Assembly (NCBI GenBank): GCA_043769645.1 | Contig: JAYVJC010000006.1 | Location: 1 to 61,096 of the forward strand | DNA length: 61,096 nt | Direction: 5' to 3' | Source: Candidatus Altimarinota bacterium | GTDB lineage: Bacteria; Patescibacteriota; Gracilibacteria; BD1-5; UBA2023 | Shown here: one piece after another, positions 12,227 through 49,430 of the stretch | Layout: each line of letters starts with the position of its first letter | Numbering within the stretch: position 1 is the first letter of the stretch | Program-made: the position numbers and the translations under genes | Notes under the pieces: generated by a model | What the model saw: only the letters and a program-made list of their open reading frames with translations | Told to the model about the DNA's origin: nothing | The model's database searches: none

Positions 12227-13585
12227 CTAATAATCATCCCCTCCACCCTTATAACTGGGAGATTGTGTCTTCTCGATTTCATAAAATTTCTGATGTTGCT
12301 TTTCGAACTTGAGATCGACTTGCCCCGTCGGACCGTTTCGATTCTTTCGGATAAAGACGCTGGTCATTCCGGGGATTTCTGAGAATTCGTTGTAGTAATC
12401 ATCTCGATAGAGCATCAGGATGATATCCGCATCCTGTTCGATCGATCCTGATTCACGGAGGTCAGACATCATGGGCCGCTTGTCTGGACGAGCTTCGAGT
12501 GCTCGCGAGAGCTGAGAGAGGGCAACGACCGGAACATCGAGTTCACGAGCAAGGGATTTGAGTCCACGGGAAATTTCCGATACTTCCTGGACACGGTTCA
12601 TACTGTTTCCACTCGACATGAGCTGGAGGTAGTCGATCACGATGAGATCGAGTCATGACTCCATCTTGAGACGCCGTGCTTTGCTTTTGAGTTCGAGGAT
12701 ACCTGCCCCAGCAGGGGAGTCATCGATATAGATTTTCGCTTGCGAGAGTTTCTCAAGCGCATCACCCATTCGGGCAAATTCTTCTTCAGAGAGTTTTCCT
12801 TTTTGAAGTTTCCAGCTGTCGACGGCCATGGTAGCCGCAATCATACGATCAGTAAGCTGTTCTTTGGACATTTCGAGGGAGAATATAGCTACATTTTTCC
12901 CTTTTTGACCGACATTTTGTGCGAAGTTCATAGCGATCGCGGTCTTTCCCATACTTGGACGAGCGGCGACGATGATAAGATCTCCTCGCTTGAATCCTCA
13001 GAGCTTCTCATCAAAGCTTACATATCCGCTAGAAACACTATTTTTCTGAGTAAGTGAGGGATCTGCCGCGATAGCTGCAAACTCTTCATATCGAGCGTTC
13101 AATATATCCTTGATTGGAACGAGTTTGTTCTGGATAAAGGTCTGTGTCACTGTAAAAAGAGATTTCTCAGATTTTTCCAGGAGACTCGTCGTTTCAGTCG
13201 CTTCATCGTATCCATAGAGCATGATCTCGTTTCCTGCCTTGATCAGTCTCCTCAATACTGATTTATTTTTGACGATTTGAGCGTATTGGAAGATATTTGC
13301 ACTCGTAAAAACTGAACTCGTGAGATCAGCAAGAAAAATATTCCCCCCGATTCATTCGAGCCGTTTCTTATCATCGAGAGATTCTCGTACCGTGATGAGG
13401 TCAATCGGTCGATTTCGAGTAAAGAGCTCAAGCATCGATTCGTAGACAAACGAGTGGGCGGGATCATAGAAGTCATCAGGAACGAGGAGGTGACTTACCT
13501 GAAATATCCCATCCTTATCGAGAAGGATGGATCCGAGAACTCATCGTTCGGCGTCGGCACTATGAGGGAGAATTTTGAGGTCCAA
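12227..13585 (-). CDS. dnaB: replicative DNA helicase DnaB
   Basis: Contains AARPSMGKT (Walker A), [33 protein letters not shown] and [11 protein letters not shown]. Four in-frame TGA codons join the track fragments. The start is provisional (TTG 13585; a stop lies in frame at 13607..13609). Confidence 0.92.
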
Positions 13586-13764
13586 AGGAAGTGAAAAAAT
13601 TAATAATTAATAATGAAGAATGAATAATAATGAATAGTGAGAAATTTTCATTTTTGAGATCATCTCGATAAAAGCTATCTCAATGATGTCGTTATTGAAG
13701 AGAGTACTCACTTCATGGTATTATAATTCAGAATCTCGGCGGTTTGAAGTACATTAATTCCTGT

Positions 13765-15331: not shown

Positions 15332-15778
15332 ATGGATATCCTTCCCATGTGTGAACGTTGCGACGCTCTCTGTTGTCGAGCGTATGACATCTACGATAGT
15401 GCCTCTGAAACCTTCGTGAAACGTGCAGGGGTAGCCTGCAGTCATCTTGCCAATAATCGTTGCAGTATCTACCACGATATCCCGGATCACGCTGGGTATC
15501 GAGAGTCTTGTCATCAGTATGATTGTATGGAGTGAGGCCCAAACGTCACGGTCTTTCTACGTCGTATTCCTGACACTATCGATGTATCCGGGATGACAAC
15601 ATCTCTTCTCGAAACGATTCGACTTCGAGTTATGAAGAATCCCGAACTGAGAAGTGAGATTCTCATATATTCGGAAAAACTATTGAAAAAAATCGCAATA
15701 GATAACAGTCTATCTCTTTCAGTCAAGCTCGCCCGGGTACAGATAGAGCGATTTCGTCCTCCTAAAAATCAAAGCTAA
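15332..15778 (+). CDS. YkgJ-family cysteine-cluster protein (CxxCxxCC zinc/iron-chelating domain)
   Basis: Contains CERCDALCC plus further Cys/His. Track ORFs 15332..15535 and 15593..15778 are joined by a TGA at 15533. Confidence 0.6.
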
Positions 15779-17360
15779 ATTCTCTTTTACTCCACTCGAA
15801 GAGTTTCTGTATACGTTCGAATGGATGAAGATGTGGAAGGGGAATACCGAATTTTCGATGCATCTTGAGTTCCAGAGGTTGGATTTTAAAAGGTTTCCCG
15901 CTTTTCTCACATATGATTGCCCAATGTAATATATCATCGGGAATATGGCTTATATCAAAAGGAAGCCTCTCTGCTGGAAGTGTTTTCATTACTCACTCTG
16001 GTTTAAGTTCATAGTCCGACCATTCAAGACCTCGAGCCATGACTTCCTCCTTCGAGAGTGGGAGGATCATCATCGCAAATGATGCATCATAGGGATACCA
16101 GGCATATTTCGCATCAGAGAATTCTCCCCATTCTCCTGACTTCTGCATTTTCCTGATGAGTTTCTTTACACTGGATTCCCACTCTTCCTTCGAGTACTGT
16201 CTGTTGAAAATACAATATGAGAGATGATGCAGGCCAGAACATCAGAAAAGATAGGAACAGTTATGGCAATTGTGACAGTAGAATTGGTAACTCGAGTGAC
16301 TCCAGGAACCCTGAGTCCAGTAGAGATGCGATGAATTCCCACCAACCCCTATACAATCATAAGAAAGAGAAAGGTGCTCTCCGAAGCTCGTAATATCCAT
16401 GGAGTCTTTGACCTCGAAACAGTCATTGATATACCAGCTATCTTCCGAGTCAGCACTATTATACGATGCATGTACATTTTTACTATCATAGCAGTAGTCT
16501 CCTGTTGTATTTGTGGATCATGTGATAATATTTTTCTCGATCCCGTTTTTTTCACGAAGATCATGGAATTTCTTCTCAAATTCTAGTCGAAATGATTCTT
16601 CAGTCTGTATTCTCTTGAGCGTTTTTGTATATTCTTCCTCAGAACAAGGAGTGTTCAGGATGCGATATTGTTCGTTTTTGAGTCCTACACATCCGAGGAG
16701 GTTCTGGCAACCATCACAAGAAAAAGCATACCATGAGTCGCGACACTCCTCAGAGTTGTAAGAGAAATGCAGATTATAACACTTCCAGATATAAGCTGAG
16801 AAACTACAGTTATGAGAAAATCGTGTATAGATACAGTTCATGATAGAGGTATCATGATGAACAAAAAACCCATAGAGACACTTCTCATTCTCATTGCCAT
16901 TCGACGTGAGGTAGCAATCCTTCGAATTCCCATTTCCACTGACGAATTCACTATTTTCGAGTTCTTTATAGGCGTTATCGAGTGTGACATGTGGTACTTT
17001 CCTCATAAACTCCGCACACTGCTCTGAGAAATTTTTACTCCAATCTATTGCTTCAGCATAAGAAAGTCCATCCATCTTATCGCTCCACCAGTCTTGCTGG
17101 TTCCATATGACCGATCGCGAATCTTTCGGAAAGGTACTGATGATATCTTTTCCGGTCAGATCACATATTCTTTTATGAAGGGAGAAATAGTTTCGAAACT
17201 GAGCACGCCTCCTGAGGCGTTCTTGCGGGCAAAGTGTTGGAAAAGGAATCGGAAATTTCTCTCCTCAGATGATCGGAGAAAGTTTATCGAGAAGGGCTAT
17301 TTCCGAGTCTGAAATAGTGAATTCTTTTCATGAGATGCGACAGGTGCGAGTGAAGGGCAT
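15762..17360 (-). CDS. Cys-rich zinc-ribbon repeat protein, paralog D (function unknown)
   Basis: 532 codons, with all in-frame triplets checked (only TGA interruptions). It has an N-terminal module (...FTISDSEIALLDKLSP...PTLCPQERLRRRAQFRN...CDLTGKDIIS), a Cys-rich core, and a C-terminal module (IPDDILHWAIICEKSGKPFKIQPLELKMHRKFGIPLP). Confidence 0.75.
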
Positions 17361-17362
17361 GA

Positions 17363-18964
17363 TTAGTAGTTGATATGCCACTTGAGTCTATCGAGGTACC
17401 TCTGATCGGGATGTCGTCGAGGGATGGGAAGGTGACGTTTACGGTAGAACTCGAGTTCTTGTCTGATAATCTTGAATGGTTTTCCTGAGACTTCACATTC
17501 AATAGCCCAGTTGAAGATATCATCTGGAATTGATTCAATAGAATCTGGTAGTTTACTGGCAGGAATAATCTTCTCTACTTTAGGAAATGGTGCTTCGTAG
17601 TCGGACCAATTAAAGTTTTGTTTTATGGCTTCTTCTTTCTCGAGACGAAAATATTCATTTACTGCTGCTTCCGTATATCCGAGTGGCGAAAGTATCGCAG
17701 GAAAGAATTCACCCCAATCTTCATCATGCATCATCTTCTCGATAATCCGAGGAACCAATACTTCATACTCTTCCTTGGTATATTGCTTGTTGAGGATGCA
17801 GTAAGATTTATCACTCACTCCGACACATCCAAAAATATGCTCTGAGCTCGAACATGAGTAAGCGTAAAAGGAATATCTTGTATTTGGCCAGATATCTACA
17901 GAAAAAGCACATCCAAACATATTGACTCATCCAGTAGAAATCTCATAAGAATAGTCTGTTTGACAGCAACAGTAATCCAAGTCTTGAGCATTGAATGTAT
18001 CTTTCACAAACTGAGCATACTTCACATCTTCCATATCGGAAGTATCACAGACGTAGTAGCAATTTTCCGATCGTTTTGTATAGTCACCAATTACATGTTC
18101 AGTCAAAAGGAGATCAAGATGCTTCTTTGGTGTTTTTATTTTATTTTCATTATATATTTTCTGAAGTTGATTTGTTTCCATTTTTAATATCTGCTCTTTT
18201 TTGAGAGTGTATTCTTCCTTTGAGTACGAAATATTCTCAATGTAATACTTTTTATTTTGTAGATTGGATGATAGTATGCACTCTTCACATCAGATGCACC
18301 TTTCACAATACCACATATTTTGGCAAGCATCAAGGTTTTCAGAGTAAAATGATGCACTACAGTTTGATATATCGATACATTCATAACAAACTGAAGATCA
18401 AGTAGCGAGGATACAGTCAAAACAATCATTGCACTCAATCAATCTTTTTCCGTATGCACAATCACGAGCACTTTGGCAGCTGAAGATGAGATAGCAATTC
18501 TTACACTTATAGATCTGATTTGTGAACTCACAATTTTCTGATGCGGGATCTCTATATAGTGATCGGTGAGGTACATTTTTGAGGAGCTCTTCAAACTGCT
18601 CAAAAAATCCTCTCGTGAAATCAAACTCTCTTCCATAGCTCATCGGATCCCAATTATCGCTCCACCAGTAATCTCCGTTATAGACTGTATATGGTTTATC
18701 TGGTGAATAAATAGAGATGATTTCTTTCCCCGTTGCATCACACTTTCTCTTGTAGAGTTTTCTTTCATTACGGAATGCGAGACGTCTCTGTTGTCGACAG
18801 TCAGGACAGAGAGTTGGGGGAGGGATAAGGTATCTCTTCCCACTAAAAGTTGGAGATACTTTCTCATAGAACTCCATATCCTTATCCGTGATCGGAAAAA
18901 CAGAAGAACACTTCTTACAGATTCTATTTTCTATGAGATGTTCATTCGGTGGTATGGGGTACAA
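17363..18964 (-). CDS. Cys-rich zinc-ribbon repeat protein, paralog C
   Basis: 533 codons. Starts MYPIPPNEHLIENRICKKCSSVFPITDKDMEFYEKVSP...PTLCPDCRQQRRLAFRNERKLYKRKCDATGKEIIS and ends ...IPDDIFNWAIECEVSGKPFKIIRQELEFYRKRHLPIPRRHPDQRY. It joins three track ORFs via TGA. Its TAA lies 2 nt before the paralog D ATG. Confidence 0.8.
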
Positions 18965-19010
18965 GGAAATTAATAATTAAAAATTAATAATGCAGAATAT
19001 ATATAACAAG

Positions 19011-20621
19011 TTAATAATTAATGTAAATTTTTGTCCGTTCTTGGTATCGAATGTCGGGGTGTTTTTTCGGTATTGGAAGATTATGTTTTCTGTAGAAATC
19101 GAGTTCTTGTTTTGTGATCCGAAATGGTTTTCCAGAAACTTCACACTCTATAGCCCAATTCATGATATCATCAGGGATTTGTGAGATATTATCAGGGAGT
19201 TTTGAGCTCGGTATAGTTTTTGAAACCTTCGGAACTGGAGCCTCATAATCTGACCAATTGAATCACTGGCTGAGTGCTTCCTGTTTCGAAAGTGGATACT
19301 GTATCATATTCATCGTCTGATTATATCCAAAGTGACTATATTTTGTAGGAATAAATTCTCCCCATTCTCCTATTTTTTTCATATGAGCAATGATATCTGG
19401 AACCAGAGATTCATATTCTTCTTTCGTATAGTGTTTATTGAGGATGCAGTACTCAGTATTCTTGAGGCCGATACATCAGAAACACTGATGAACATTCCCC
19501 ACACAATAGGCAGAGTAGTAGAGGTGCGATATATTTGCCCAAGAATAGATGGTGAAGTGTACGGAACTACAGGCCTCTCCTACGACGATTGACTCGTATG
19601 AGTGATCGAGTCTATCCCCCCAGAGATCTATATCCATCGCAAGTCGAGTATCCCTGAGGCGAGACGAGTGACGTATGTCTTCACTTTCTTGAATTATGCT
19701 CGAATATGAAATATTTTTTGAATCAAATACTCGTGAGGAGTGATTGGCGTTCTCAGATCCTGTATTTTTTGGAATATATCATCAGTAGTTCGCTTCTCCG
19801 AGAAAGAGTTCGAACTTCTTCTTTTGCTCAGAAAGTGGGAGTATAAGGAATTTTTGGAGTTCACTATGGTATTCGCTTTCAGAGAATCAAACATTGTAGA
19901 TGTGATATTGCTGATTTCTCAAACCGACGCAAACATAACAATCCTTGCATCACTCACAATCATAGAGAAACCTTCCCTCACGACAATCCTTGACGTCGAA
20001 TGAAAAGTGTACACTATAACAGTTTCGAGCATCGAGGAGTTCATAGCTATTTTGACAATCAGAAATACCCAAACAATCTACACAATTCTTCGAGTCCCAC
20101 ATATCGATCGAGTAGCAGCAATCTTCATTATATCAAGCATTGAAACAGAGGTAACAATTTTTTAGATCGCTACAATTATCTGAGTATTCAGAGTTTTCCA
20201 TGCCGAGAGAAATAGACTTTCCAGGCATAGGAACTAACTTTTTGAGTTCTCACCACTGTTCGAAAAATGGTCTCGAAAAATCAAAGTCTCTTCCATACTG
20301 CTTCCCATCCCAGCCATCAGAATACCAGTAGTCACTTTCATAGACCGGACACGGTGCATCCGGAGAAAAGAGGGAAATGATTTCTTGTCATGTCGCATCA
20401 CATTTTCTTTTGTATATATTTCTCTCATTTCTCCATGCGTATCGGCGAGTTTTTCGGCACATCGGACAAAGAGCTGGAAAGGGAAGTTCGAATCTATCTC
20501 ATGCGATCGTTGGGGCGAGACGAATCAAAAAATCCTGATCGATTTTCGTGATATCGAATAAAGAAGAGCAAAGAATACAAGTACGGGTTTCGATGATGCT
20601 TTCGGTTCAGGATAGGGACAT
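19011..20621 (-). CDS. Cys-rich zinc-ribbon repeat protein, paralog B
   Basis: 536 codons, with every in-frame triplet checked (no TAA or TAG; about 16 TGA). It has the same N-terminal, core and C-terminal modules (...WAIECEVSGKPFRITKQELDFYRKHNLPIPKKHPDIRY). It is almost invisible in the standard ORF track. Confidence 0.75.
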
Positions 20622-20710
20622 CGAGATAAAAATATGATTCTATTATGAGAAAATCTGTATCTTTTGCAAGATTGGCTCGTTTTCTTTTATCAGGATGAGA
20701 AACGAGTCGT

Positions 20711-22771
20711 TTATGAAAGCACTTCCCTCAGATAACACTCCTCACAGTAGACTCTCTCTGGTCGTTCGGGTGCATAACTCGTAATCATCATCTTCCCTCT
20801 CGTCCCTGTCCTCGGATTTAGAGCGAATACAAATGATTCCTGGTTCCCCTCTCTTTTAGGAGAGGGGTTAGGGGTGAGGTGATTCTCCTCACAGTTTGGA
20901 CAGTCACAGAGTCTCTCAAAGAGTTTCCTTGGATTCCTCTGCTTCATACGATCCATGTGTCGTATATCAGGATGACGACGAGGAATAGGAAGATGATGTT
21001 TACGATAGAATTCTAACTCCTGCCTGATGATTCGAAATGGCTTTCCTGACACTTCACATTCTATAGCCCAGTTGAGCATATCATCAGGAATAGAATCAAT
21101 AGAATCTGGAAGTTTACTCGCTGGAATAACTTTCTCTACTTGAGGAAATGGTGCTTCATAATCAGACCAATTGAAATATAGCCCTCTTTTGAAAGAGGGG
21201 TGCCCGAAGGGTGGGGATATTTCCTGTTTCTCCAAATCCTCAGTCTTTCCCTTCGTTTCAGACAGCTCCTCTCAAAAAGGAGCCTTTTCAAGTACTTCTT
21301 CTCTCGTCATCGGAAAGTATTCTTGTGCAACCGTCTCATTGTATCCAAAGGGTGACAGAGAAGCGGGAAAGAATTCTCCCCATTCTCCATCTGCCATCAT
21401 CTTCTCTATAATACGAGGAACTAACTCTTCATATTCTTCCTTTGTATACTGTTTGTTCAGGATACAGTAGGATTTCCTATCGATTCCTACACAGAGAAAA
21501 CAGTGAGCCGTATTATCACACTCATTCTGATATATACCATTTTTTACACCCCAACATCGCACTGAGAAGAGAACATTTGAGCTTTCGAGCGCGGTATTGA
21601 TCGACTCATAGATATATCAACTATTGAATCCTACTGCATCACCATCCATCAGTGAAAGACCATTCAGCCCAGCATTACATGCATACTTTGTATTCTCTGC
21701 ATTTTCGAAGACATAGAAGGATGAATGGCAGTTTTTTCCATTCCGGATATAGTCTCCACTACAGTTCTCACTCTGGTGGATTTGCGAAGACCGGTGTATC
21801 CCTTTCTGGAAAAATATTGATACAGACTTATCTCTCTCGCTTTTCGAAGGGAATTTTCTCATAAAATCTTCTATCTTTTTTCTATATTCTTCCTCACTGT
21901 AGGCGGTATTAAAGAAGTGAAATTTCTGATTCCTCAGGTTCTGACAACCGAAACAATTACTACAACCGATACAGTTCCTGAGATAGCTACTATCTCGACA
22001 ATCCTCACAATTCACTGAGAATGAAAGTGCATGACAGTCCATACAATCGAGACAGTCATAGCACTGATGCGAGCGATCACAAAACGAACAATCAACACAA
22101 AAGTCAGCATAGTGAAGCCAATATCCATAGAGACAATCTTCATCGAAGCTACTCTCGAAGAGCATGTAGGTATTCTTATTATCCGTACAAGTCTGAGTAT
22201 ATTCACTATTCTCACTATTTGTATTAAAAAGCGATGGTCTCGGCACGACTTGGAGAAGATCAGAAAATTGTTCAAATGCCGATCGGGAAAAATCAAACTC
22301 TCTTCCATACTTCATAGGATCCCATGCGTCACTCCACCAGTATTCTTGCTCATACACAGTAAAAGGAGAAACAGGGGAATAGACGGAGATAATATCCTTT
22401 CCAGTCGCATCGCACTTTCGTTTGTAGAGTTTTCTTTCATTCCGAAAACTGAGTCTTCTTTGTGCACGACAGTCTGGACAGAGCGTCGGAGGAGGGATGA
22501 GAAAAACTCCCTTTTGAAAGGGAGTACCAGCGATAGCGGGGGAGGGATTTCCTCCTGTTTCTTGTATCTTTATTTTTCATTCAGCAATGAGTGTTTTGGT
22601 AGTTTCTGAAATAGGTAAATCCTCCATCTCCTTCGGGAAGGAGGCTAGTGGAAATACTGGACTTACCTTCTCATAGAACTCCATATCTTTATCCGTGATT
22701 GGAAACTGTACCGAGCACTGTCGACACTTTCGAGATTCTACGAGATGTTCACCGGGAGGGATAGGGTACAT
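20711..22771 (-). CDS. Cys-rich zinc-ribbon repeat protein, paralog A (686 aa, with in-frame palindromic insertions and a longer C-terminus)
   Basis: Joins track ORFs 22577..22771, 21617..22357, 21272..21562 and 20711..21235 through in-frame TGA codons, and the junctions were checked. It matches the family of paralogs B-D, but with about 45-aa and 30-aa insertions and an extra C-terminal Cys module (...CDCPNCEE...VYCEECY). Confidence 0.8.
20846..20867. repeat. GC-rich perfect hairpin (cccctctc-ttttag-gagagggg) inside the paralog A coding sequence
   Basis: An 8-bp inverted repeat lying within the C-terminal segment that only paralog A has. It is translated in frame as ...NPSPKREGN... Confidence 0.8.
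21182..21199. repeat. GC-rich hairpin (ccctctt-ttga-aagaggg) inside the paralog A coding sequence
   Basis: A 7-bp inverted repeat within an insertion of about 30 aa relative to paralog C. It is translated as ...HPSFKRGLY... Confidence 0.8.
22506..22525. repeat. GC-rich hairpin (actccctt-ttga-aagggagt) inside the paralog A coding sequence
   Basis: An 8-bp inverted repeat within an insertion of about 45 aa relative to paralog C. It is translated as ...GTPFQKGVF... Two more small hairpins follow, at about 22541..22556 and 22624..22642. Confidence 0.8.
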
Positions 22772-23089
22772 GGGATTCTGAATTACTATTACTGAATCTA
22801 ATCATACAAAATAAGGATTCTTTTTCAATACTTCTTTAGCATTAATACTCTATAAACTCTTTTTCTTTCATTCCTCATTTTCCTAAATCCATTTTTTCTT
22901 TTGCTTTAGATGAGAATCGACTGAGTTTTTTCGTTCAAAAATCGTATACAAACTCCTCGTGTCAAGCTATTTTTTCTTTTGACTTCGATACAAAAAAGAG
23001 TAAAAACTTCACCTAGATTTCACATAGAAAAGTACAGATTTTACTCTCGAAAATAGAAACGTCAACTGCCCAATATCTACCTATATTTT
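22772..23089. promoter_or_regulatory. AT-rich divergent intergenic region upstream of dnaA; candidate oriC and promoter region
   Basis: 318 bp of AT-rich non-coding DNA between the divergent paralog A and dnaA. The call rests on context only. I could not identify convincing consensus DnaA boxes by eye. Confidence 0.3.
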
Positions 23090-24520
23090 ATGCCAACTGC
23101 GTTCACTTTTTCTCTTCTCGAAGCGAGTATTCGCGAAGTATCTTCGAAGATTCGGAAGCAAGACTTCTTGACTTATTTTAAGAAATTTTCACTCCTCTCA
23201 GTCGATGAGAAATCTATCACTATAGGGGTCGTATCTTCCTTCCATCGAGACAACCTCATTCGTAAATTCTATGACGATATCAAGTCCGCCATTCAGACGG
23301 TCGCTCCATCGATAGAAACTCTTGATTTCATCGTCGATGATAGTATCGATACGCGAGGTGAAGAAGAGGTAATCGATGCCCGACTCCTCCTGAAGGATAC
23401 GATCAAAGAGCAAAAAAAACAACAAATCGAATGAGTCGAAATCGTCGATGGACTCAATAGTCGAGTGATCAATGACCGATATAAACTCGATAACTTCATC
23501 ATCGGACCTTCGACGCAGCTTGCGCATGCGGCCTGTGAAGCAGTAGCGAGAAAACCTGGCTCTTCCTACAATCCCCTCTATATCTATGGAGATGTCGGAC
23601 TCGGGAAGACGCACCTCCTTCAGGGAGTCGGGAATACCATCCGTACGAAGCATAAACATCTCAAAGTTATCTATACCACGGCTGATAGGTTTCTCACGGA
23701 CTACGTCTCGAGTGTCAAAAAACGTTCGGTCGATGCCATGCGAGACCGCTATCGAGGAATCGATGTGCTTATCATCGATGATGTCCAGTTTCTCTCAGGG
23801 AAGAAGCAAACGCAAGAAGAGCTCTACAATATCTTCAATATCCTCTATGAAGCTGGGAAACAAGTCATCCTTTCGGGAGATCGTCCGCCGAAGGAACTCA
23901 GTGAACTCGAACCCCGTTTGCAGAGCCGATTTGAGTGGGGAATCACGGTCGATGTCGGTGCCCCTGACTACGAAACTCGTCTTGCGATCATCCAGGAAAA
24001 AGCTCGAGCTCGAGAGTTTATCCTTCCTCAGGATTCATCTGAGTTTATCGCCGAACATGTCACTGGAAATGTCCGGGAACTCGAAGGGATTCTCAATCAG
24101 GTGATCGCTGAATACGATCTCAAAAATACTCCTCCCACAATAGAAAATGTCGCTATGCGTCTCTCGAAGCTCGCGGTGAAGACGATTACTCGAACCCTCG
24201 CTGATGGTGCGGGTCGAAGTATCCGTATCGGAAACTGTAGTTATGAAGATCTCATCCAGGCCGTTTCGAGTCACTTCGGGATCGAAATCCGTATGCTCCT
24301 CTCGGAAGATCGAAAAAAAGAAAATATGATTCCCCGTCAGGTCGCTATGTACCTCCTCAAAAACCGACTGCACTATACCTACGAACGCATCGGGAATATC
24401 TTCTCAGGTCGCAATCATACGGCCGTCATGTACTCGTGCAAGAAGCTCGAATCCGTGATGAAAAAAGACCAACAAGTAGTGTTCGAAGTAAATGTAATTC
24501 GAGATAGACTAGGAATTTAG
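23090..24520 (+). CDS. dnaA: chromosomal replication initiator protein DnaA
   Basis: Contains NPLYIYGDVGLGKTHLL (Walker A), LIIDDVQFL, a box VII region, and the C-terminal DNA-binding part (...IPRQVAMYLLKNRLHYTYERIGNIFSGRNHTAVMYSCKK...). A single TGA at 23432 joins the two track ORFs. Confidence 0.95.
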
Positions 24521-24571: not shown

Positions 24572-25108
24572 ATGTGAAAAAATCCTCTTAGACCTGTATC
24601 TTGAGATATAACTTCAGTAGATACTCATTGATTCGATGTATTCACTTGAGTAGAAAAGAGTGAACTCTATACATTCGCACTATCTATAGAATCGAAAATT
24701 GTTCGAGTATCACCTGAACTTTTACGAGATTTAGCTGAGTTTAATCAAAGAAGGTTTTCCCAAAAACATCCTGATAAAAAATTTGTACCAAATCTTTCGT
24801 CCTACAAAAAAGCTCAAAAATACAGCTGAAAAGATAATGAGTATGTGATGGAACTTGATAGAATAAAGTATCTTGCTGAGCTTTGACTTTATTGAGAACC
24901 ATGAGAAGAAATCAAAGATACAGTATTAGTCATTTCAACAAAAAGTAATCGAATTCTCTGAATCTGATACAAAGTACTCAAATGAGGGAAAGAAAGAGTT
25001 CGATGTTTTGTACGGTATTCTACTCTTACTGAGAAAAGACAGAAAGCAGAACTCGTAATTCAAGAGATTTCTCAGAGATTCTGAAATGTTTTTGATTCAA
25101 GAAAATAG
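24572..25108 (+). CDS. hypothetical protein (TGA-dense)
   Basis: ATG at 24572 and TAG at 25106. It has 178 codons, 12 of them TGA, and no TAA or TAG in frame. No homology recognised. Confidence 0.45.
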
Positions 25109-25849: not shown

Positions 25850-26368
25850 ATGTGATTTTCCCATCAACTACAAAGTCCGGAGGTTCAACTTGCGAGCGCA
25901 GTATCTCTATCATTCACTATTTTTTTAGAAGAAATAGCATCACAGTATCCATATGCAAGAATTCTTGCCTTTAAAAAATGGCACTCCGCTGAATCTCTTG
26001 TGGAAAAATTCAATGATAAAACTAGATTTTTTCGAATTCTTCGATGAGAGAATGGACAAATACTGGCCTATTTTGAATCCAAACAATGCTGAGAAGTTGG
26101 AAAAGAGAATGTGCAAGTCATTCAATGGTTTTTTGTCTGATGAGACGTGAGAAGACAATGAATACTCAGGCAAATATGGGAGCAATTTGTCGAATGGTGC
26201 TCGATTAATGGCTACGAATATATCTGGAGCATGACTACTCTCCAAAATCATATCTCTCAAAATGTACATCGTGCTCTTTTTGGACCCGGTACTTCCCAAT
26301 TAATTCAGTCACCAGATGGTCATTCGTATAGATATGTTTTGGATCTGGAAAACAGAATTGAAAAATAA
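25850..26368 (+). CDS. GNAT-family N-acetyltransferase, putative
   Basis: ATG at 25850 with 6 in-frame TGA codons; TAA at 26366. ...VQVIQWFFVGGDVRRQGILRQIWEQFVEWCSINGYEYIW... resembles GNAT motif A (R/Q-x-x-G-x-G/A). Confidence 0.55.
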
Positions 26369-26452
26369 ATCTTCTAATTATAATCACCTCACCCGAACTA
26401 GAACTCACATTTTTGATAGAATCAGAAGTTATTATTTATCAGAAAGGATATG

Positions 26453-26482
26453 TGAAGGCTGAATTTGTACTGGTGTTTTAGT
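26453..26482. repeat. direct repeat copy 2 (degenerate duplicate of the rsmI 3' end)
   Basis: gtgaaggctgaatttgtactggtgttttag. Upstream codons read ...EVIIYQKGYVKAEFVLVF*, which compares with the rsmI end ...EVREYYKGEGKVKGEFVLVF*. Confidence 0.75.
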
Positions 26483-26518
26483 AGAGAATTTGACTGATGA
26501 GGGAAAGTATGATAGATT

Positions 26519-29320
26519 ATGAATATGTGATTACTTGATCGTATCAGGGAAGGCTTTACTAGAAATTCTCGACTAGATATTCAATATGCTGAAAGTTTAC
26601 GGAAAAGAGCTGATTTATTTGCGATCCCAGATGGTCGTTATCAGGAACTTCTGAACAGATATGAAAAAGGTATCTCTCTGTGAAAAGTACTTCAGGAATG
26701 AGGTTCCCGATATTCTTTCGCATACTGACTTGAGGCCTATATTTTTTATGGGACGAAAAGGTTAGGAACAAAATTTGAAGTACTAACACTAAAACGAGAA
26801 ACTGAGATATCAGAATTTATTCGGTGAATGAGTGAGTTTTGAGAAGATATTCGTATGAGTTTCTGACACTTTATGAAGGATCGGGAGGAAGCTCGGAGAT
26901 TTCAAAGACTCTGTTTTTTATGACATTATTGGCAGACCCAGAAAGGTACACTTTGAAAATCACCATATATCAATGGTAAACTAAAACTGCATGAGCTCCT
27001 GGCTCAGGAACTCGCCTATATGAATTTTGCCTCCTCAAAGCCTAAACTTTGAAGTAAGTTACATATGGAAGAAAGTGATCTTCTGGAGAGGCAAAAGCAA
27101 GTACATATTCAAGGACTCCCGAACTCAGTAGGTCTTCTTTGAATTAAGTTTATACAACCACATGATGGAGTTACCCTCCTTGAAGAGTACTTCGTAGTCA
27201 AGAATCCATCTTTCTCAGAAATACGAGCCCAGGGGGCAAATATGTTAGCAATATGGCCACTCTTTTTTAAGAAACATGCACAACTCTTAAGTTCTGATGA
27301 CCCAATCGTTGATGAATTGAGAAAACTTCTCTGAGAAGCATATTTTTGAGTACTTTTAGACGGAGTGGAAACATCAAAACTAGACTGAATCGTTCACCAA
27401 GTTGAAACTCGGGTAGCTGATATTCAGTGATCAGGTGGATGAAAAACATCAGAATGGCAATCAAAAATTGAACCAGAAAGACCCCTTATCCAATCAGGAA
27501 TTCCGAGTGACTATAGGTTCAAAAAACCGAGTATGAGATCGCCCTTTATTCGATCATTATCGAATTCACGTACCGGTGAAGTGACGGTGAAAAGGGAAGA
27601 TATAGTACAGACGATTCCTCATAAAAAATATACCCTTCTCTGGCTCTATGTACCAGATGAAACAGGATCTAAGGAATGAATTTGGAAAAGTGTCGCCGAT
27701 GCCTCCAGTATTACTATCTTCTGCGTCCCAGGGTTTCGCTATCAGTGCACTTTTTCTCGACCAGAAAATACTGAATACGAATGAATCGAAGCAGGTATTA
27801 TTACTGATTTTTTCTATGAAATAAGAACCAGTGTTCCATCTCAGAAATCGAATAATCCTGCAGGGAACACAAAAATTGAAAGAGATACTTCTGATGATGG
27901 GGGTTCTACTATTCAGATAATAAAAGGTACATCAATATCAGTAAGAGATGTATTTTTAAAACTAGATATCATCCAGAGTATTCATGATGAAGTCACTCAG
28001 GGTAACAGTACGCCATATTATGATGCATGAAAAAATATGTATACTTTGATGATCGCGTATTGAGACGATTATATCTATTTAGAATACAATCTTATAACTC
28101 AAGAAGCTCAAGTACGCTATTGAGATCTTCAGTTTGAAGATGAGAGTACTGTAATTAAGAGCGAAATTGACGCCTATTTTGAGAAAGTAGTACTTCGGGT
28201 AACACAAGAAAAAAATGAAGAAAAAAATCGTAAATTATGAGAATTGGGAAAATATACTACGGGAATTGTATGAGCACTTCGAGAACATACTCCAGTCCTT
28301 CCTTCTTTTCGATACAATGATAAACTATTTACAGGAATCTGGGTGATGATGTGAAAAGGGAATCATCATGTAGAAAAAATGCTCGACTCAATTTCTCAAA
28401 AGGGTTTAGAAATAGTTGCAGAAAGATCATGAGAGTGATGATCAGAACTCAGGATTCAGCTCCGATTTGAAGAGGAAGCCGAGACATTATGAACCATAAC
28501 ATCAACACCCCAAGAACCATACTATGCGATAGCTCTTCAAAAAAGTCATCCACAGGTGCAATTTATCGGATCTATCCTACAGGATATGTATTTTATATTC
28601 GGTTACATATGAGCAAGAGCTGGATGAGTCATAGTCGAAACATGAAGAAAAACATGAAATAAAAGATATATCCTGGATGAAGAATTACCATCCATCTTGG
28701 AGTATTGATTTATTGATCAACAAAGTAGGCCTGATCAATTGGTAAAAACAAAAATCCTCACGTGATATGAATTAGGATTTGTCAGAGATAATATCTATCG
28801 TTGGATTTTGTGAGAGTGAAAATCTAGGATGAAAGATGGTAGTATAGAATGAAAGAAACATCAATATCTTCTCAAAACTGATAATAATATTGAAAGCATT
28901 GTTCTTCTCGACGAGAGGATACAGTATGCCGGATATTGAGAAACTCCTGAGGTTTATGAAAAAATAAGAAGGAATAAAAGACTACAAAAATACTTTATAT
29001 TGAGAATGGTTGCAACTATCATAGGTCGGAGTTTTCGAAATAAGAGCCCATTTCCAGGAAGAATGCAAGCTGAATTCAAAAGTTTCTGGAGTGGAATCGA
29101 CAGAGTGATTCAAGAAAAATTTCTCGCTTGTATGCAAGAATGAGTATGATGATCTGGGGAAGCTCTAGCCTTGAAATGTAGAGATGGAATATCTTTATTT
29201 GAAAAAATGCTGAACTATTTCGAATCACATGATATCGCACTCCTCTACGTAAACCCCGTACTCATAGATGTAGATAGTTTTGTAAAAGAGGCGCAAAAAC
29301 TTGGATATATGAAGGATTAG
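26519..29320 (+). CDS. large hypothetical protein, 933 aa, 41 in-frame TGA codons
   Basis: Every frame-2 codon from the upstream TAG (26513) to TAG 29318 was read. There is no TAA or TAG in frame, there are 41 TGA codons, and the ATG is at 26519. The standard track has no ORF of 60 aa or more between 27465 and 29411. No domain recognised. Confidence 0.7.
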
Positions 29321-29411
29321 AAGTATATATTTTCTTGTGTTTTTAGATTTTTATTTATAATCCATCTATCCGAGCTACAACTCGCGTGTTTATTCTATAG
29401 TCGCAACTATT

Positions 29412-30542
29412 ATGGTTTCCCAGCTCAATGCTCGGCACAAGCCGAAGTATACCCTTTTGACATTTTATAAATTCGTCGATATTCCAGAGTCTGAACTTGA
29501 TAGAGTCGCGCAAGAACACCTGGATTTCACTCGAGATATCGGCCTTCGAGGACGTGTCTATATAGGCACTGAGGGTATCAGCTCCACCGTCACCGGAAAT
29601 GAGTGACAGTGCTGGGCCTATCGGCAGTTTCTTGAAACATCACAGTATTTTCGAGATATCCCCGATATTGATAGTAAGGCCACCTCAGTAGATAATCATG
29701 AGTTTCCTCGGATGAGTGTGAAGATTCGCAATGAAATCGTCACATTTGGGGTAAAAGTCACAGCCGAGCAAGTACAAAAATACAAGAAAGAACTTACACC
29801 AGAGCAATTCAAAGATATCCTCGAATCCGAGAAAAAAGCTGACTATGTGATTCTTGACATGAGAAATGACTATGAGTACCGACTTGGTCACTTTAAGAAC
29901 GCTATCCCCGCAGGAACGGTCAATTTCCGTGAAGTCCCGAATCTCCTCGAGCGGTATCATGAGCTCGCGAAGGGGAAGAAGGTCATCTGGTACTGTACGG
30001 GAGGGATTCGGTGTGAGAAGGCTGCTGTTCTCGCGAACGAGCTCTCGGATACCGAGTTCTACTCGATACAGTGATGAGTGGTCAAGTATGTCAATGAATT
30101 CAATGATGGAAACTGGCTCGGGAATCTCTATACCTTTGATGGTCGCGTCTCAACAGCCGTTGGTGATGCACAAACTCATACGACAATCTGAGAATGCCTC
30201 TATACTGGGGAAAAAACTGATAATTGCGAAAATTGTCGATATGCACCATGCAACGCTCGAATGATCGCAACTCCATCGGCCTATAAGAAGCATATGGGTT
30301 TCTGTTCGGAAGCTTGTTACCAGAGTGCTCGCCAGGATGGACTTGTGAAAGTAGTCCCATGGGATAAGCTCGATTATCTCTCACTTGGTCGTGAAATGCG
30401 AAACTCCCCCTTATTAAATGGAAATGGGGTGATTTTGCACCCAGTAATAGAAAAAATCCAGAAGCATCTCGATTCCAAACTTTCCAAGATCGAATGGAGG
30501 TATAAAATGAGTCAAAAAGAAGAAGAAATAATCGAATGTTAA
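29412..30542 (+). CDS. trhO: rhodanese-domain tRNA uridine(34) hydroxylase TrhO (YceA/UPF0176)
   Basis: Contains ...LTFYKFVDIPE..., GRVYIGTEGISSTV and a rhodanese active-site loop (YCTGGIRCEKA). Three track ORFs (29412.., 29712.., 30261..) are joined by TGA codons, with the frames checked. Confidence 0.85.
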
Positions 30543-30597: not shown

Positions 30598-31089
30598 ATG
30601 TTTATACTGACGACTTCATGAGTTCTTGATGGAAATATGGACTGACATGCTTGAGTTACTTCCTCAAACGTTATTCGTCCTGTAAAATTAGAAAATTGAG
30701 TAAAAGTTGATACTATTCTATCATCTCTGAGAGGGACTTCTATATCTAATGCAAGAGAAGCAAGGAAATATTTGATCGAACTCTATCCAGAACTTGAAGA
30801 AATACTCTGAGAAAATCTCTGAGAAGATGATCAAGTAAAAGCTGATACAATTATCATGTCTTTTTTTGAAGAGTTTAGTTGAGTAGATTCAGTTCTTACG
30901 AATCAAAAAAATGCGGTCAGGGAAACTATCAAGAATTGGGCCAAAGAGGAATCAGTTAAGCTTTATGAACGAGAATACTGAATTTGAAGCTTTACTGCTT
31001 GAACCTCGCCAATGCAATTAAAGTTTTTATGGATATTCTCAACGAAGTTATATAGTTTATCATGAAATTCTGGAGGGTGGCTTAAATAG
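30598..31089 (+). CDS. hypothetical protein (TGA-dense)
   Basis: ATG at 30598 and TAG at 31087. It has 163 codons, about 11 of them TGA. A strong terminator follows it. Confidence 0.4.
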
Positions 31090-31567: not shown

Positions 31568-32572
31568 ATGTCATTAAAACCTCAAAATGAAATAACAGTG
31601 CAATTCCAAAATATTGCAGCATGACTCAATGACGGTGCTCGATATAGCACTGAATGATCATGGCAGTTTTTCGTATCACAATCACCAGAAGAAATATATG
31701 ATAACTTTCGTACACATATTGATCCAATGATAGATCCAATATTAAAACAGGATTCAGACGTAGTTAGTTTCAGTGAAGTTTTTGGAGTAAGACAAAGAGA
31801 TTACATAAAGGCAAAACTCGAATGACTTGGCTATACCGTATATTTTACCGATGCATTTGAGATGTGGAGTCAGATGGTAGAGGGGGAACATCTTTATAAT
31901 ATGGTCTGAATAAAAGAAGATAAGTTATGAAAACCGGAAGTTACTCATCATGAGTTTAGAAATAAAAGAAAAATTGAAGGGGTAGCATTTGCTATGAATT
32001 ACCTATTCCCCGTTCTTCCGTATACTCCAAGAAATAATAATACCCAGAAAGTATTAGCCCATGTATGAAATAGAGTAAAAGATATTGTGAATTGAGAAAG
32101 AGGTATTCAAGTCAAGACGAGTCCAGAAATTGGAAAAGCAAAAGCTATCTATAATAGACTTGCAAACGGAATACTTGATTGAGCTATAACAGTTTTAGAT
32201 TTTGATTGATTTACCTTTGCAACTGGTCATGTCCATAAGTTTAATTATGAAGTCGTCAGAAAACTAGAAGGCAGTATCTCAGATAAACCATTTATGCTTC
32301 TCTGAGATATGAATGTAGATGAATGAGATATCATAAAAACACATCCTCCATTTGCTACTCCAGACTGGAAAAGTATTCTCGATCCAAAAACACGTACATT
32401 TTGATTTCGTGCTAGGAGATGACTTGGAAATAGAATAGCAACGGAGTTATCGCATTTTCAGCCAGATGTTTTAGTAGCAAAGTGATTTGATGCCCAGCGA
32501 GTAACAACAGTAAGATCTAAAAGTGATCATGATGGAATTGCTGCAACGATGACCTACGATAAAGCAGGATAA
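31568..32572 (+). CDS. endonuclease/exonuclease/phosphatase (EEP) family protein
   Basis: ATG at 31568 with 14 in-frame TGA codons; TAA at 32570. LLGDMNVDE and a C-terminal SKSDHDGIA resemble the EEP catalytic motifs. It is absent from the standard track. Confidence 0.6.
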
Positions 32573-46013: not shown

Positions 46014-47219
46014 TTATCCCACTTCAAATAAAACTCCGAGTTCTTGCTTCGTATTCGACTTGAGGATTCCCTGTGAGATGACTCATTCTCCGAATCTGCT
46101 CTTGAGCTTCACGAGTACATCAGAAACCCGCGTATTCTTTATATGTATAGTATCAGCGATATCAAATACTGATAATTGCTTCGGTGTAAATGAAGCCAAC
46201 TCAGAGAAGGTGACTCAGGTGGTTCTATAGGTAACTCACTTCGAGTATAGTGAATGGAATATCCCTTTGAGTACGTCAATCATCCGAGACCGATCGACAT
46301 GGACTTCTCCCATATCCACTGCTCTATTTGCATAGGTAAATTCCTTCGTCCTCAGAAGTACTCCTATCACTCGTGCTCACTGTCGTTCAGCGAGCATCGT
46401 CTCGTAGGCACGCTCGAAATTCATGAGGATTTGTCCCCAGAGAAAACGAGCATCGTCTGATATCATATGATTGAATGACCTCGTACATGCAATACTCTTT
46501 CTTTTCTTACTCGTGTCATGAGGCACCCAAGAGTCGACTCCGTGGAGTTCCAACCAGAGGTTGCTCCCATTCCTTCCGAGGATCTTACTGACATCCATCC
46601 CCTCCATCGAGTAGAAGTCATATACTGTCTTGATACTCACTCAGAGTCTCGCACTATTTCTGCGGGCGATATAGGGGATTTCTGTGACTGGAAGGGTCCG
46701 AAAGAGGTCTTCTATATCCGGTGTGTGGAAATCCACATAGGATCAGAAGGGTTTATTGAGATCTCCGAACATCTTCGCTCGGAGTCGAGTATTCGATATA
46801 CCTATTGATACGGGAATCCCGATATCGTGGTAGATTTCTTCCTTTAGCGACTCGGCGAAGTTATCATACCTTCCGGGAATATGGGTGAGTTCTACAAAGA
46901 GCTCATCGATCGAAAACACTTCTATATTGCCAAGTTTATCCGTGAGATATTTCATCAGTCTTTCAGAGACTTGTCGATACCAGGCATGGTCGGGGAGTCT
47001 CACAATGAGTTTTTTTCAGAGCATTCTTCGAGCTTCCCAGAGGGGAGTACCGACCCGGATTCCGAGCTTCTTGCACTCATAGCTCGCGGCGATAACGATT
47101 TGATCTCCTACCGCTACAAATTTCCCCTTGAGAGATGGATCTCTCAGGACTTCACACGACGCATAAAAACTATTGCAATCGATATGTGCATATATATGCC
47201 TTGAGGTATGAAAAATCAT
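46014..47219 (-). CDS. dinB: Y-family DNA polymerase (DinB/UmuC-like)
   Basis: Starts HIDCNSFYASCEVLRDPSLKGKFVAV, then ...SIDELFVEL... and ...VSIGISNTRLRAKM... Track ORFs 47016.., 46743.. and 46377.. are joined by TGA and continue to TAA 46014 (1206 nt). The ATG lies 2 nt after the lexA stop. Confidence 0.85.
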
Positions 47220-47221
47220 AG

Positions 47222-49429: not shown

Positions 49430-49430
49430 A

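What the first reader, a model, noticed from the sequence alone, without database searches (positions are those of the whole stretch)
26519..29320. Hidden 933-aa gene with 41 in-frame TGA codons and no recognisable domain
I read every frame-2 codon from 26513 to 29320 and found one uninterrupted reading frame: ATG at 26519, TAG at 29318, 41 TGA codons, and no TAA or TAG. The standard six-frame track shows no ORF of 60 aa or more for almost 2 kb of this stretch (27465..29411), so it would look like non-coding DNA. I cannot assign any family or motif to the protein. It sits right after a small insertion scar at the rsmI 3' end, in an origin-proximal accessory pocket along with other TGA-dense orphan genes (24572..25108, 25850..26368). 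A large lineage-specific protein that ordinary pipelines cannot see is the best candidate in the chromosomal part for something undescribed.
Basis: seen in the sequence. Interest (0 to 1): 0.75.

Follow-up and report, generated by a model that had tools for sequence, protein, structure and literature searches.

The report
Fast-evolving orphan gene in recoded bacterium
The 2.8-kb stretch is a real gene from a Gracilibacteria-type bacterium that reads TGA as glycine; it encodes a large, rapidly evolving protein with no known relatives that in related genomes nearly always sits beside tRNA-modification genes, and its function is unknown.

Summary
Window 26519-29320 (+) is one 933-codon frame with ATG, 41 TGA, no TAA/TAG and a final TAG. 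It is a real code-25 gene (TGA = Gly). Twelve homologues from other TGA-recoded genomes keep the full frame with 24-46 TGAs each. In conserved glycine columns TGA and GGN interchange (49 vs 67). The two invariant Trp columns are always TGG.

The protein ("BIG") belongs to a rare family: 25 clusters at 50% identity among 1.84 billion representatives. It has no Pfam, NCBIfam, PHROG, PADLOC or PDB match. AlphaFold models are fairly confident (pLDDT 74-77). Foldseek finds only a generic FnIII-like β-sandwich.

BIG is not in an accessory pocket. It holds a conserved slot, rsmI-BIG-trhO. In other clades it lies next to trhO in a different order, or next to a TrmR-like methyltransferase. It is the fastest-evolving syntenic gene: 22-27% identity against 68-88% for its housekeeping neighbours. 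The TGA richness belongs to a low-GC3 codon class.

Function is unknown. My best guess is a cytoplasmic nucleic-acid-binding factor linked to modification of the translation apparatus. Public databases already hold the protein, unnamed and mostly mistranslated with Trp for Gly.

The parts
26519..29320 (+). BIG coding sequence: 933 codons plus TAG, with 41 TGA read as Gly (code 25)
26499..26503 (+). possible Shine-Dalgarno GAGGG, 15 nt before the ATG; an in-frame TAG at 26513 fixes the N-terminus
   Evidence: sequence reading only
26576..27433 (+). N-terminal all-helical domain (aa 20-305), holding the conserved motifs RFQRLCFL.HYW and LLEEYF...FFKKH
   Evidence: AF2 (same layout in P0012); alignment
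27434..27529 (+). disordered linker 1 (aa 306-337); Lys/Arg/Pro-rich in most family members
27530..27814 (+). FnIII/Ig-like β-sandwich (aa 338-432) with invariant P337 and W389
   Evidence: AF2; Foldseek (best E 0.028, prob 0.99, 2ha1)
27830..27943 (+). disordered linker 2 (aa 438-475)
27944..28282 (+). helix + 4-strand sheet module 1 (aa 476-540), followed by a ~48-residue single helix (aa 541-588)
   Evidence: equivalent elements
28298..28753 (+). helix + 4-strand sheet module 2 (aa 594-675) and helices (aa 680-745); invariant G606, near-invariant G698
28754..29317 (+). C-terminal α/β domain (aa 746-933). It is the most conserved part (mean pairwise identity 31%). Invariant: R761, I776, D798, Y813, T833, W857, F868, Y910. 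Near-invariant: V795, E799, R821, K824, Y825, R829, P913.
28946..29023 (+). helix-turn-helix-like core motif PEVYEKIRRNKRLQKYFILRMVATII (aa 810-835)
   Evidence: AF2 helices 810-818 and 820-835; sub-threshold Pfam HTH_46 hit on the same motif in P0008
25164..25826 (+). rsmI (16S rRNA C1402 2'-O-methyltransferase), the conserved upstream neighbour
   Evidence: TIGR00096, 236.8 bits against a cutoff of 167.9
25850..26368 (+). GNAT acetyltransferase cassette inserted between rsmI and BIG; a homologue lies on the other side of BIG in L006
26416..26481 (+). decayed duplicate of the rsmI 3' end (..EFVLVF*); this is the insertion scar
29412..30542 (+). trhO (oxygen-dependent tRNA uridine(34) hydroxylase), the conserved downstream neighbour, 91 nt after BIG
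   Evidence: NF001133, 202 bits against a cutoff of 170
23090..24520 (+). dnaA, marking the origin-proximal position of the block
   Evidence: my reading of the translation; 75% identical to a gene of L004 that carries Bac_DnaA domains

Best explanation
Shown: window 26519-29320 is a functional, vertically inherited, single-copy gene of a Gracilibacteria (Ca. Altimarinota)-type bacterium that reads TGA as glycine.

Shown: it encodes a 933-aa soluble protein with no signal peptide or membrane helix. The predicted layout is an N-terminal helical domain, a disordered (often basic) linker, an FnIII-like β-sandwich, two helix-plus-sheet modules separated by long helices, and a conserved C-terminal α/β domain built around a helix-turn-helix-like motif (Y..I..N.RLQKYLILRMvATI).

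Shown: the family has no detectable relative in any characterised family or solved structure. It evolves much faster than its neighbours but remains under purifying selection. Its 41 TGAs reflect a low-GC3, weakly codon-selected gene class, not a special signal.

Inferred: the gene lies close behind rsmI (37-90 nt) and close to trhO (56-175 nt) on the same strand. In another clade it lies 36-37 nt upstream of a TrmR-like O-methyltransferase. TrhO makes ho5U34 and TrmR makes mo5U34. I therefore think it most likely acts as a nucleic-acid (RNA/tRNA or rRNA)-binding accessory or scaffold factor that is co-expressed with enzymes modifying the translation apparatus. I do not think it is an enzyme of a known class.
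For: Reading frame and genetic code:
- The frame is intact and far beyond chance.
- 12 homologues each carry 24-46 TGA and no TAA/TAG.
- TGA and GGN interchange in 12 conserved Gly columns (49 vs 67). In the four conserved Trp columns TGA occurs once among 47 residues, and the two invariant ones are all TGG. The pairwise result agrees.

Family:
- 25 representatives at E<=1e-3, aligned over the full length. One copy per locus.

Selection and rate:
- L001/L002 dN/dS is 0.39 for BIG, 0.14 for trhO and 0.16 for the 339-aa gene.
- Window vs L004 identities: RsmI 88%, DnaB 80%, TrhO 76%, DnaA 75%, GluRS 68%, YceG 52%, HisK 50%, BIG 22-27%.

Codon class:
- TGA share of Gly codons is 0.47 in BIG and 0.24 in neighbours, in the same direction in 11 of 12 loci.
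- GC3 is 0.277 in BIG against 0.39-0.50 in five housekeeping genes. Spearman rho between GC3 and TGA share is -0.49.

Structure and localisation:
- AF2 pLDDT is 76.9 (P0012) and 74.1 (window protein), with the same domain order.
- The maximum Kyte-Doolittle 19-residue mean is 1.1, and there are no internal repeats.

Neighbourhoods:
- rsmI-BIG-trhO in the window, L002, L004, L006 and L011.
- trhO-BIG-rpoBC in L005 and L007.
- BIG followed by Methyltransf_3 in L003, L008, L009 and L010.
- The window trhO passes the NCBIfam equivalog cutoff.
- The methyltransferase's best PDB matches are TrmR 8k1f (3.6e-16) and YrrM 5zw3.

HTH hint:
- AF2 helices 810-818 and 820-835 carry the conserved Y813, R821, K824, Y825, R829 and T833.
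- HTH_46 scores 23.4 bits on this motif in P0008.
Against: - There is no expression or proteome evidence.
- The function rests on gene order alone. Groups A and B are fairly closely related genomes (RsmI ~90%, TrhO ~75% identical), so part of the trhO adjacency may be inherited rather than selected.
- The methyltransferase matches other family-3 O-methyltransferases almost as well as it matches TrmR.
- L012 has an unrelated gene downstream.
- The HTH_46 hit is below Pfam's cutoff, occurs in one member only, and is absent from the correctly translated sequences.
- Foldseek found no nucleic-acid-binding fold.
- Very fast sequence evolution is unusual for a core translation factor.
- FnIII-like domains are more typical of extracellular proteins.
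- The window model was built on the Trp-for-Gly mistranslation and on a 25-sequence alignment in which most rows carry the same mistranslation.
Confidence: 0.55

Rival explanations
1. Arms-race protein. BIG would be a host-interaction, surface or anti-phage factor whose rapid divergence is driven by diversifying selection. Its position next to rsmI and trhO would then be only inherited gene order.
For: - BIG is the most divergent syntenic gene, and its dN/dS is higher than its neighbours'.
- It has an FnIII/Ig-like β-sandwich with weak resemblance to phage minor-tail and PKD domains.
- Gracilibacteria are thought to be episymbionts that carry many large interaction proteins (PMC6851277).
Against: - No signal peptide or membrane helix was seen (hydropathy of the window protein; my reading of the N-termini).
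- There is no PADLOC or PHROG match, and no NTPase, nuclease or toxin motif.
- It is single-copy in a fixed housekeeping slot, with short same-strand gaps to rsmI, trhO and trmR.
- It was not found on viral contigs.
- dN/dS is still below 1.
Confidence: 0.2
2. Chromosome-associated DNA-binding protein. BIG would be a replication, segregation or nucleoid factor, encoded near oriC and acting through the C-terminal helix-turn-helix.
For: - It lies two to four genes downstream of dnaA in the window, L002, L004 and L011.
- It has an HTH-like conserved motif with basic residues and basic disordered linkers.
- In group C it lies near recG, an HrpA-like helicase, lexA and recA.
Against: - In groups B and C the gene is not next to dnaA.
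- The recurrent immediate neighbours are RNA-modification genes, not replication genes.
- No structural match to any DNA-binding protein was found.
Confidence: 0.12
3. Not a gene: either a chance open frame or a decaying pseudogene. Alternatively, TGA here means Trp (code 4) or stop with read-through.
For: - With only two stop codons, this genome has many long spurious ORFs, for example a 464-aa frame antisense to dnaA.
- The database copies of the protein were translated with TGA = Trp.
Against: - Chance probability is ~3e-5 for the window.
- The full-length frame is conserved in 12 loci at 17-41% identity.
- Purifying selection is detectable.
- AF2 confidence is 74-77.
- TGA aligns with GGN or TGA, and with TGG in only 17 of 3672 pairings. 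TGA occurs once in the four conserved Trp columns.
Confidence: 0.01

Closest known systems
Unnamed 'hypothetical protein' family of Ca. Altimarinota/Gracilibacteria, e.g. GAB0174164.1 (HHAS10_00430) = P0012
   Same: Homologous over the full length, with the same predicted domain order, the same conserved C-terminal motifs and the same TGA-rich coding.
   Different: Only about 17-18% identical to the window protein. The gene neighbourhood differs: a TrmR-like methyltransferase lies downstream instead of trhO. No member has been studied or named.
tRNA U34 oxy-modification pathway: TrhO (ho5U synthase) and TrmR/YrrM (ho5U to mo5U methyltransferase)
   Same: BIG is adjacent to trhO in 7 loci, immediately upstream of a TrmR-like gene in 3 loci, and two small ORFs away from one in a fourth. 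All are on the same strand with short gaps.
   Different: BIG has no sequence or structural similarity to TrhO, TrhP, CmoA/B/M or TrmR. The known pathway, as I recall it, needs no protein of this kind. The link is guilt by association only.
FnIII / Ig-like β-sandwich modules (fibronectin type III; PKD and minor-tail-protein domains of phages)
   Same: Residues ~338-432 are predicted as a 7-strand sandwich. They give the only Foldseek hits (E 0.028, prob 0.99 to 2ha1; TM normalised to target 0.28-0.52).
   Different: E-values are not significant. The module covers 10% of the protein. The protein lacks a signal peptide, unlike most bacterial FnIII proteins.
Winged helix-turn-helix DNA-binding domains (Pfam HTH_46, PF15977)
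   Same: Two consecutive conserved helices with basic residues. One family member scores 23.4 bits over this motif.
   Different: The score is below the 29.3-bit gathering cutoff. Eleven of the twelve correctly translated sequences show no hit. There is no Foldseek support.

Membership tests
Genetic code 25 (UGA = Gly; Gracilibacteria / Absconditabacteria) | In-frame TGA aligns with Gly in homologues | tested here: met
   12 conserved Gly columns hold 49 TGA and 67 GGN; window TGA pairs with TGA (19) or GGN (6); the GNAT and rhodanese Gly motifs are also encoded by TGA.
Genetic code 25 (UGA = Gly; Gracilibacteria / Absconditabacteria) | TGA is not used at conserved Trp positions (this excludes code 4) | tested here: met
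   in the four conserved Trp columns TGG fills 44 of 47 residues and TGA one; the two invariant columns are all TGG. TGA pairs with TGG in only 17 of 3672 pairings.
Genetic code 25 (UGA = Gly; Gracilibacteria / Absconditabacteria) | tRNA-Gly(UCA) present and release factor 2 absent in the genome | not testable with these tools
   There is no tRNA gene in the 61-kb window, and the rest of the genome is not available.
Any curated protein family (Pfam-A, NCBIfam, PHROGs, PADLOC) | Score at or above the curated or significance threshold | tested here: not met
   no family hit for the window protein or for the 12 correctly translated members. The best PHROG E-value was 0.023, to a family of unknown function.
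Any solved structure (PDB), or any predicted viral protein structure (BFVD) | Significant sequence-profile or fold match | tested here: not met
   profile E >= 0.35; no Foldseek hit with E <= 0.001. AlphaFold DB was not available.
FnIII/Ig-like β-sandwich domain | 7-strand sandwich superposable on FnIII | tested here: inconclusive
   best E 0.028, prob 0.99; TM normalised to target is 0.28-0.52 among the top hits, with rmsd 4.5-15 A.
Winged HTH (Pfam HTH_46) | Pfam gathering score 29.3 bits | tested here: not met
   23.4 bits in P0008 only; no hit in the other members.
tRNA (m)o5U34 modification system (TrhO/TrhP, TrmR, CmoA/B/M) | Homology to a known pathway enzyme | tested here: not met
   no match to rhodanese, peptidase U32 or methyltransferase models.
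tRNA (m)o5U34 modification system (TrhO/TrhP, TrmR, CmoA/B/M) | Conserved operon-like linkage with pathway genes | tested here: met
   Eleven of 12 loci lie next to or near trhO or a TrmR-like gene, in three different arrangements. The TrmR identity is tentative.
tRNA (m)o5U34 modification system (TrhO/TrhP, TrmR, CmoA/B/M) | Requirement for, or effect on, ho5U/mo5U formation | not testable with these tools
   This needs tRNA mass spectrometry or genetics.

The most novel reading that the evidence does not exclude
BIG is a previously unrecognised, lineage-specific component of the decoding machinery of UGA = Gly bacteria. It would be a tRNA- or ribosome-binding factor that works with TrhO, TrmR and RsmI. 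It could, for example, direct or restrict wobble-U34 modification so that the UCA-anticodon tRNA-Gly reads UGA without misreading UGG. It would be built from folds with no solved relative.
Probability: 0.1. Interest if true: 0.8.

Novelty: categorically new. Interest (0 to 1): 0.45.

Why it matters
Recoding of TGA to glycine is well known, and so is the way it hides genes from standard-code ORF finders. That part of the finding is ordinary.

What remains is a large protein family confined, as far as can be detected, to TGA-recoded Gracilibacteria-type genomes. Its predicted architecture is fairly confident, yet it matches no characterised family or solved structure.

Three further properties make it more than a routine orphan:
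- It holds a fixed housekeeping position.
- It evolves faster than every syntenic neighbour.
- It keeps being found next to genes of one tRNA wobble-modification pathway (trhO, trmR-like) and a decoding-centre rRNA methyltransferase (rsmI).

If the association is functional, it would give a concrete candidate for the unknown factors that let these bacteria decode UGA as a sense codon. If it is not, the gene is one more of the many uncharacterised orphans of Candidate Phyla Radiation (CPR) bacteria.

There is also a practical lesson. Most database copies carry Trp at every TGA-encoded glycine. That corrupts 4-5% of residues, which is likely to hamper homology searches and structure prediction.

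Tried and rejected
- Family libraries on the correctly translated protein and family gave nothing: Pfam, NCBIfam, PHROGs and PADLOC.
- Profile searches against PDB sequences gave only noise, E >= 0.35.
- Foldseek of two AF2 models against PDB and one against BFVD gave only sub-significant β-sandwich hits.
The Trp-mistranslated database versions had to be used instead.
- The genome-collection scan found one locus, of the same species as L001.
- Two metagenome scans and one viral scan found no further members.
- PD-(D/E)xK nuclease idea, from the conserved D798-E799-(K/R): rejected. The third residue varies (K/R/I), the acidic pair sits in a hairpin, and no nuclease fold was found.
- TBP-like idea, from the duplicated helix + 4-strand modules: rejected for lack of any Foldseek hit.
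- STAND/defence idea: rejected, with no NTPase motif seen and no PADLOC hit.
- Link to the hypervariable PTD-repeat gene of the published Gracilibacterium genome: rejected, because BIG has no repeats.
- No TrmR-like gene is present in the window.
- No Rfam family or tRNA overlaps the region.
- The promoter and terminator scans were no better than shuffled sequence.
Full report
**1. Observation**

Window 26519-29320 (+) is 2802 nt. It starts with ATG and ends with TAG. It contains 41 in-frame TGA and no TAA or TAG, and an in-frame TAG at 26513 bounds the N-terminus.

TAA+TAG triplets make up 2.3% of the window. A 933-codon open frame therefore has a probability of ~2.7e-10 per start, or ~3e-5 for the whole window. 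The five other frames of the stretch hold 21-40 TAA/TAG each.

Under the standard bacterial code no ORF of 60 aa or more exists between 27465 and 29411.

**2. Genetic code**

In neighbouring genes, TGA falls at textbook glycine positions. Examples are the GNAT Q/RxxGxG motif and the rhodanese "GG" motif. A Gly_rich_2-domain protein has 40 TGAs among 92 glycines.

Against the nearest orthologue, window TGAs pair with TGA (19) or GGN (6). Window TGG pairs with TGG in 7 of 8 cases and never with TGA.

In a 12-sequence family alignment, 12 conserved Gly columns hold 49 TGA and 67 GGN codons. In the four conserved Trp columns TGA occurs once among 47 residues, and the two invariant columns are TGG throughout. 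TGA is therefore glycine (table 25), not Trp and not stop.

The taxonomic labels on two relatives are "Candidatus Gracilibacteria bacterium" and "Candidatus Altimarinota bacterium". The latter is a phylum within the Patescibacteria group. From my own knowledge, it is the current name for Gracilibacteria.

**3. It is a real, conserved gene**

An exhaustive profile search of 1.84 billion representative proteins returned 25 proteins at E<=1e-3. Of these, 14 were at E<=1e-10. Most are 940-1080 aa long, and they align over the whole length.

I retrieved DNA for twelve loci. All twelve genes have 24-46 in-frame TGA and no internal TAA/TAG. Each locus has a single copy.

Two near-identical strains (L001 and L002, 97.5% nucleotide identity) give dN/dS of about 0.39 for this gene. 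The values are 0.14 for trhO and 0.16 for the intervening 339-aa gene. Selection is purifying but comparatively weak.

The codon-usage score per codon is 0.164, at the low end of the range of the window's other genes.

**4. What the protein looks like**

I call the protein BIG. In the window protein no 19-residue segment exceeds a mean hydropathy of 1.1 and there are no internal repeats, and I saw no signal peptide at the N-termini of the members I read. It is probably cytoplasmic.

I made two AlphaFold2 predictions with the 25-sequence family alignment. P0012 gave pLDDT 76.9. The window protein, in its database form with Trp at the TGA positions, gave pLDDT 74.1. Both show the same layout:

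| Residues (window) | Element |
|---|---|
| 20-305 | helical domain |
| 306-337 | disordered linker, K/R/P-rich in most members |
| 338-432 | β-sandwich |
| 438-475 | second disordered linker |
| 476-540 | helix + 4-strand module |
| 541-588 | ~48-residue helix |
| 594-675 | second helix + 4-strand module |
| 680-745 | helices |
| 746-933 | C-terminal α/β domain |

The C-terminal domain is the best-conserved part, with 31% mean pairwise identity against 14-24% elsewhere. It holds most of the invariant residues: R761, I776, D798, Y813, T833, W857, F868 and Y910.

Its core motif, PEVYEKIRRNKRLQKYFILRMVATII, is predicted as two consecutive helices. The same motif in one family member gives a sub-threshold Pfam HTH_46 hit, at 23.4 bits against a 29.3-bit cutoff. 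This is only a hint of a helix-turn-helix.

**5. Comparison with what is known**

- Pfam, NCBIfam, PHROGs and PADLOC gave nothing. This holds for the window protein and for all twelve correctly translated members.
- Family profiles against all PDB sequences gave a best E of 0.35.
- Foldseek of both models against PDB, and of one against BFVD, gave no hit with E<=0.001. The only recurrent matches are FnIII-like β-sandwiches for residues ~338-432, with best E 0.028.
- AlphaFold DB was not available.

So about nine tenths of a fairly confidently modelled protein has no detectable relative. The only public name for a member is "hypothetical protein". I found no paper that deals with it.

**6. Genomic context**

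The window reads: dnaB(-), TPR(-), L19, four Cys-rich paralogues(-), dnaA, a 178-aa orphan, rsmI, GNAT, BIG, trhO, a 163-aa orphan, a 334-aa EEP-like ORF, histidine kinase(-), gltX..., yceG, ppk2.

The backbone dnaB-TPR-L19-dnaA-rsmI-BIG-trhO-HisK-gltX-yceG-ppk2 recurs in full in L004, and in part in L002, L006 and L011. BIG is therefore part of the conserved backbone.

The variable items are the Cys-rich paralogues, the GNAT cassette and the small orphans. The GNAT insertion is marked by a decayed duplicate of the rsmI C-terminus at 26416-26481.

There are two other arrangements:
- trhO-BIG-rpoB-rpoC in L005 and L007. Here trhO is upstream of BIG, not downstream. A simple inversion cannot produce that change.
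- recG ... HrpA-like helicase(-) | BIG - Methyltransf_3 - trx - dnaJ in L003, L008, L009 and L010. The methyltransferase starts 36-37 nt after BIG in three of these four loci.

The window trhO passes the NCBIfam equivalog cutoff for oxygen-dependent tRNA uridine(34) hydroxylase, at 202 bits against 170. The methyltransferase's best solved relatives are tRNA 5-hydroxyuridine methyltransferase TrmR (8k1f, 3.6e-16) and B. subtilis YrrM (5zw3). Other family-3 O-methyltransferases score nearly as well.

From the established pathway, cited from my own knowledge, TrhO makes ho5U34 and TrmR methylates it to mo5U34. So 11 of 12 loci place BIG beside or near one of two consecutive enzymes of the same tRNA wobble-modification pathway, in three arrangements. 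L012 has an unrelated downstream gene, and its upstream side is cut off.

**7. Rate and codon usage**

Between the window and L004, protein identities are as follows:

| Protein | Identity |
|---|---|
| RsmI | 88% |
| DnaB | 80% |
| TrhO | 76% |
| DnaA | 75% |
| L19 | 69% |
| GluRS | 68% |
| YceG | 52% |
| HisK | 50% |
| BIG | 22-27% |

BIG is the fastest-evolving syntenic gene. The detectable family may therefore cover only a narrow clade, with more distant homologues beyond the reach of sequence search.

TGA supplies 47% of BIG's glycine codons, pooled over 12 loci, against 24% in neighbouring genes. The direction is the same in 11 of 12 loci.

Within the window, TGA share falls as GC3 rises (rho -0.49, p 8e-4). 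BIG's GC3 is 0.277, against 0.39-0.50 for dnaA, dnaB, rsmI, trhO and gltX.

I infer that the 41 TGAs reflect AT-biased drift in a weakly codon-selected, fast-evolving gene. They are not a regulatory device.

**8. Interpretation**

Shown:
- It is a real code-25 gene.
- It belongs to a conserved but fast-evolving family.
- It holds a fixed position.
- It has no known relatives.

Inferred, at roughly one chance in three: BIG is a cytoplasmic nucleic-acid-binding accessory or scaffold protein, co-expressed with rRNA- and tRNA-modification enzymes. The basis is:
- the short same-strand gaps to rsmI, trhO and trmR;
- the repeated association across rearrangements;
- the basic linkers;
- the conserved basic helix-turn-helix-like motif.

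Rivals:
- An arms-race or host-interaction protein. This is supported by the rate of evolution and the Ig-like domain. It is weakened by the absence of a signal peptide, the housekeeping slot and the lack of any defence signature.
- An origin-proximal DNA-binding factor. This is weakened because dnaA adjacency is lost in two of the three arrangements.
- A chance ORF or a code-4 reading. Both are excluded.

**9. Verdict**

- The gene is hidden only from standard-code pipelines. It is already present, unnamed and mostly mistranslated, in public protein collections.
- It is not accessory.
- Its TGA density is explained.

The family itself lies outside every characterised kind I could test, so I rate it categorically new as a protein family. 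I score interest as moderate, for three reasons:
- Uncharacterised orphans are common in Candidate Phyla Radiation bacteria.
- The functional link is inferred from gene order alone.
- The structural comparison lacked AlphaFold DB.

Noticed in passing
window 24572-25108 (+): A 178-aa orphan between dnaA and rsmI uses TGA for 12 of its 13 glycines and has GC3 of 0.19. It has a 50%-identical orthologue at the same position in L002 (8661-9203), but no Pfam or NCBIfam match.
   Followed up: partly
window 25850-26481 (+): A GNAT acetyltransferase cassette is inserted into the rsmI-BIG junction. It is followed by a decayed duplicate of the rsmI C-terminus (..EFVLVF*, 26416-26481). A 35%-identical GNAT lies on the other side of BIG in L006 (4420-4947), so this small gene moves around BIG.
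   Followed up: partly
window 15762-22828 (-): Four tandem paralogues of 533-705 aa, rich in Cys motifs, share N- and C-terminal blocks. One gives a weak treble-clef zinc-finger hit. They sit between L19 and dnaA, where L004 has nothing.
   Followed up: no
window ~48880-59972 (-): A prophage-like block contains an Amidase_2 gene, a Gly_rich_2-domain protein, a weak terminase large-subunit match, and ORFs I read as capsid-like and portal-like (not confirmed). It also uses TGA as Gly. The glycine-rich protein (50549-51412) has 40 TGA among 92 Gly codons, so the phage is adapted to code 25.
   Followed up: partly
window 23081-24475 (-), 12263-13603 (+) and others: With only TAA and TAG as stops, long antisense ORFs of 446-464 aa appear opposite dnaA and dnaB. 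They even give 'homologues' in related loci (42-51% identity), simply because the sense gene is conserved. This is a trap for gene calling under code 25.
   Followed up: partly
whole window: The share of glycine codons that are TGA ranges from 0 to 0.92 between genes and anticorrelates with GC3 (rho -0.49). Conserved housekeeping genes largely avoid TGA (dnaA 1 of 26). Orphans and fast-evolving genes are rich in it.
   Followed up: yes
window 30598-31089 and 31568-32572 (+): Two TGA-dense ORFs lie between trhO and the histidine kinase: a 163-aa ORF with no match, and a 334-aa ORF with a weak Exo_endo_phos resemblance. Both are absent from the same interval in L004 and L006. The 334-aa ORF has a 28%-identical partial match in L011.
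   Followed up: partly
window 46014-47803 (-): A umuD-like (Peptidase_S24) and umuC-like (IMS/IMS_C) translesion polymerase pair lies just upstream of the prophage-like block.
   Followed up: no
window 1-61096: There is no tRNA gene and no Rfam family at gathering threshold anywhere in the 61 kb.
   Followed up: yes
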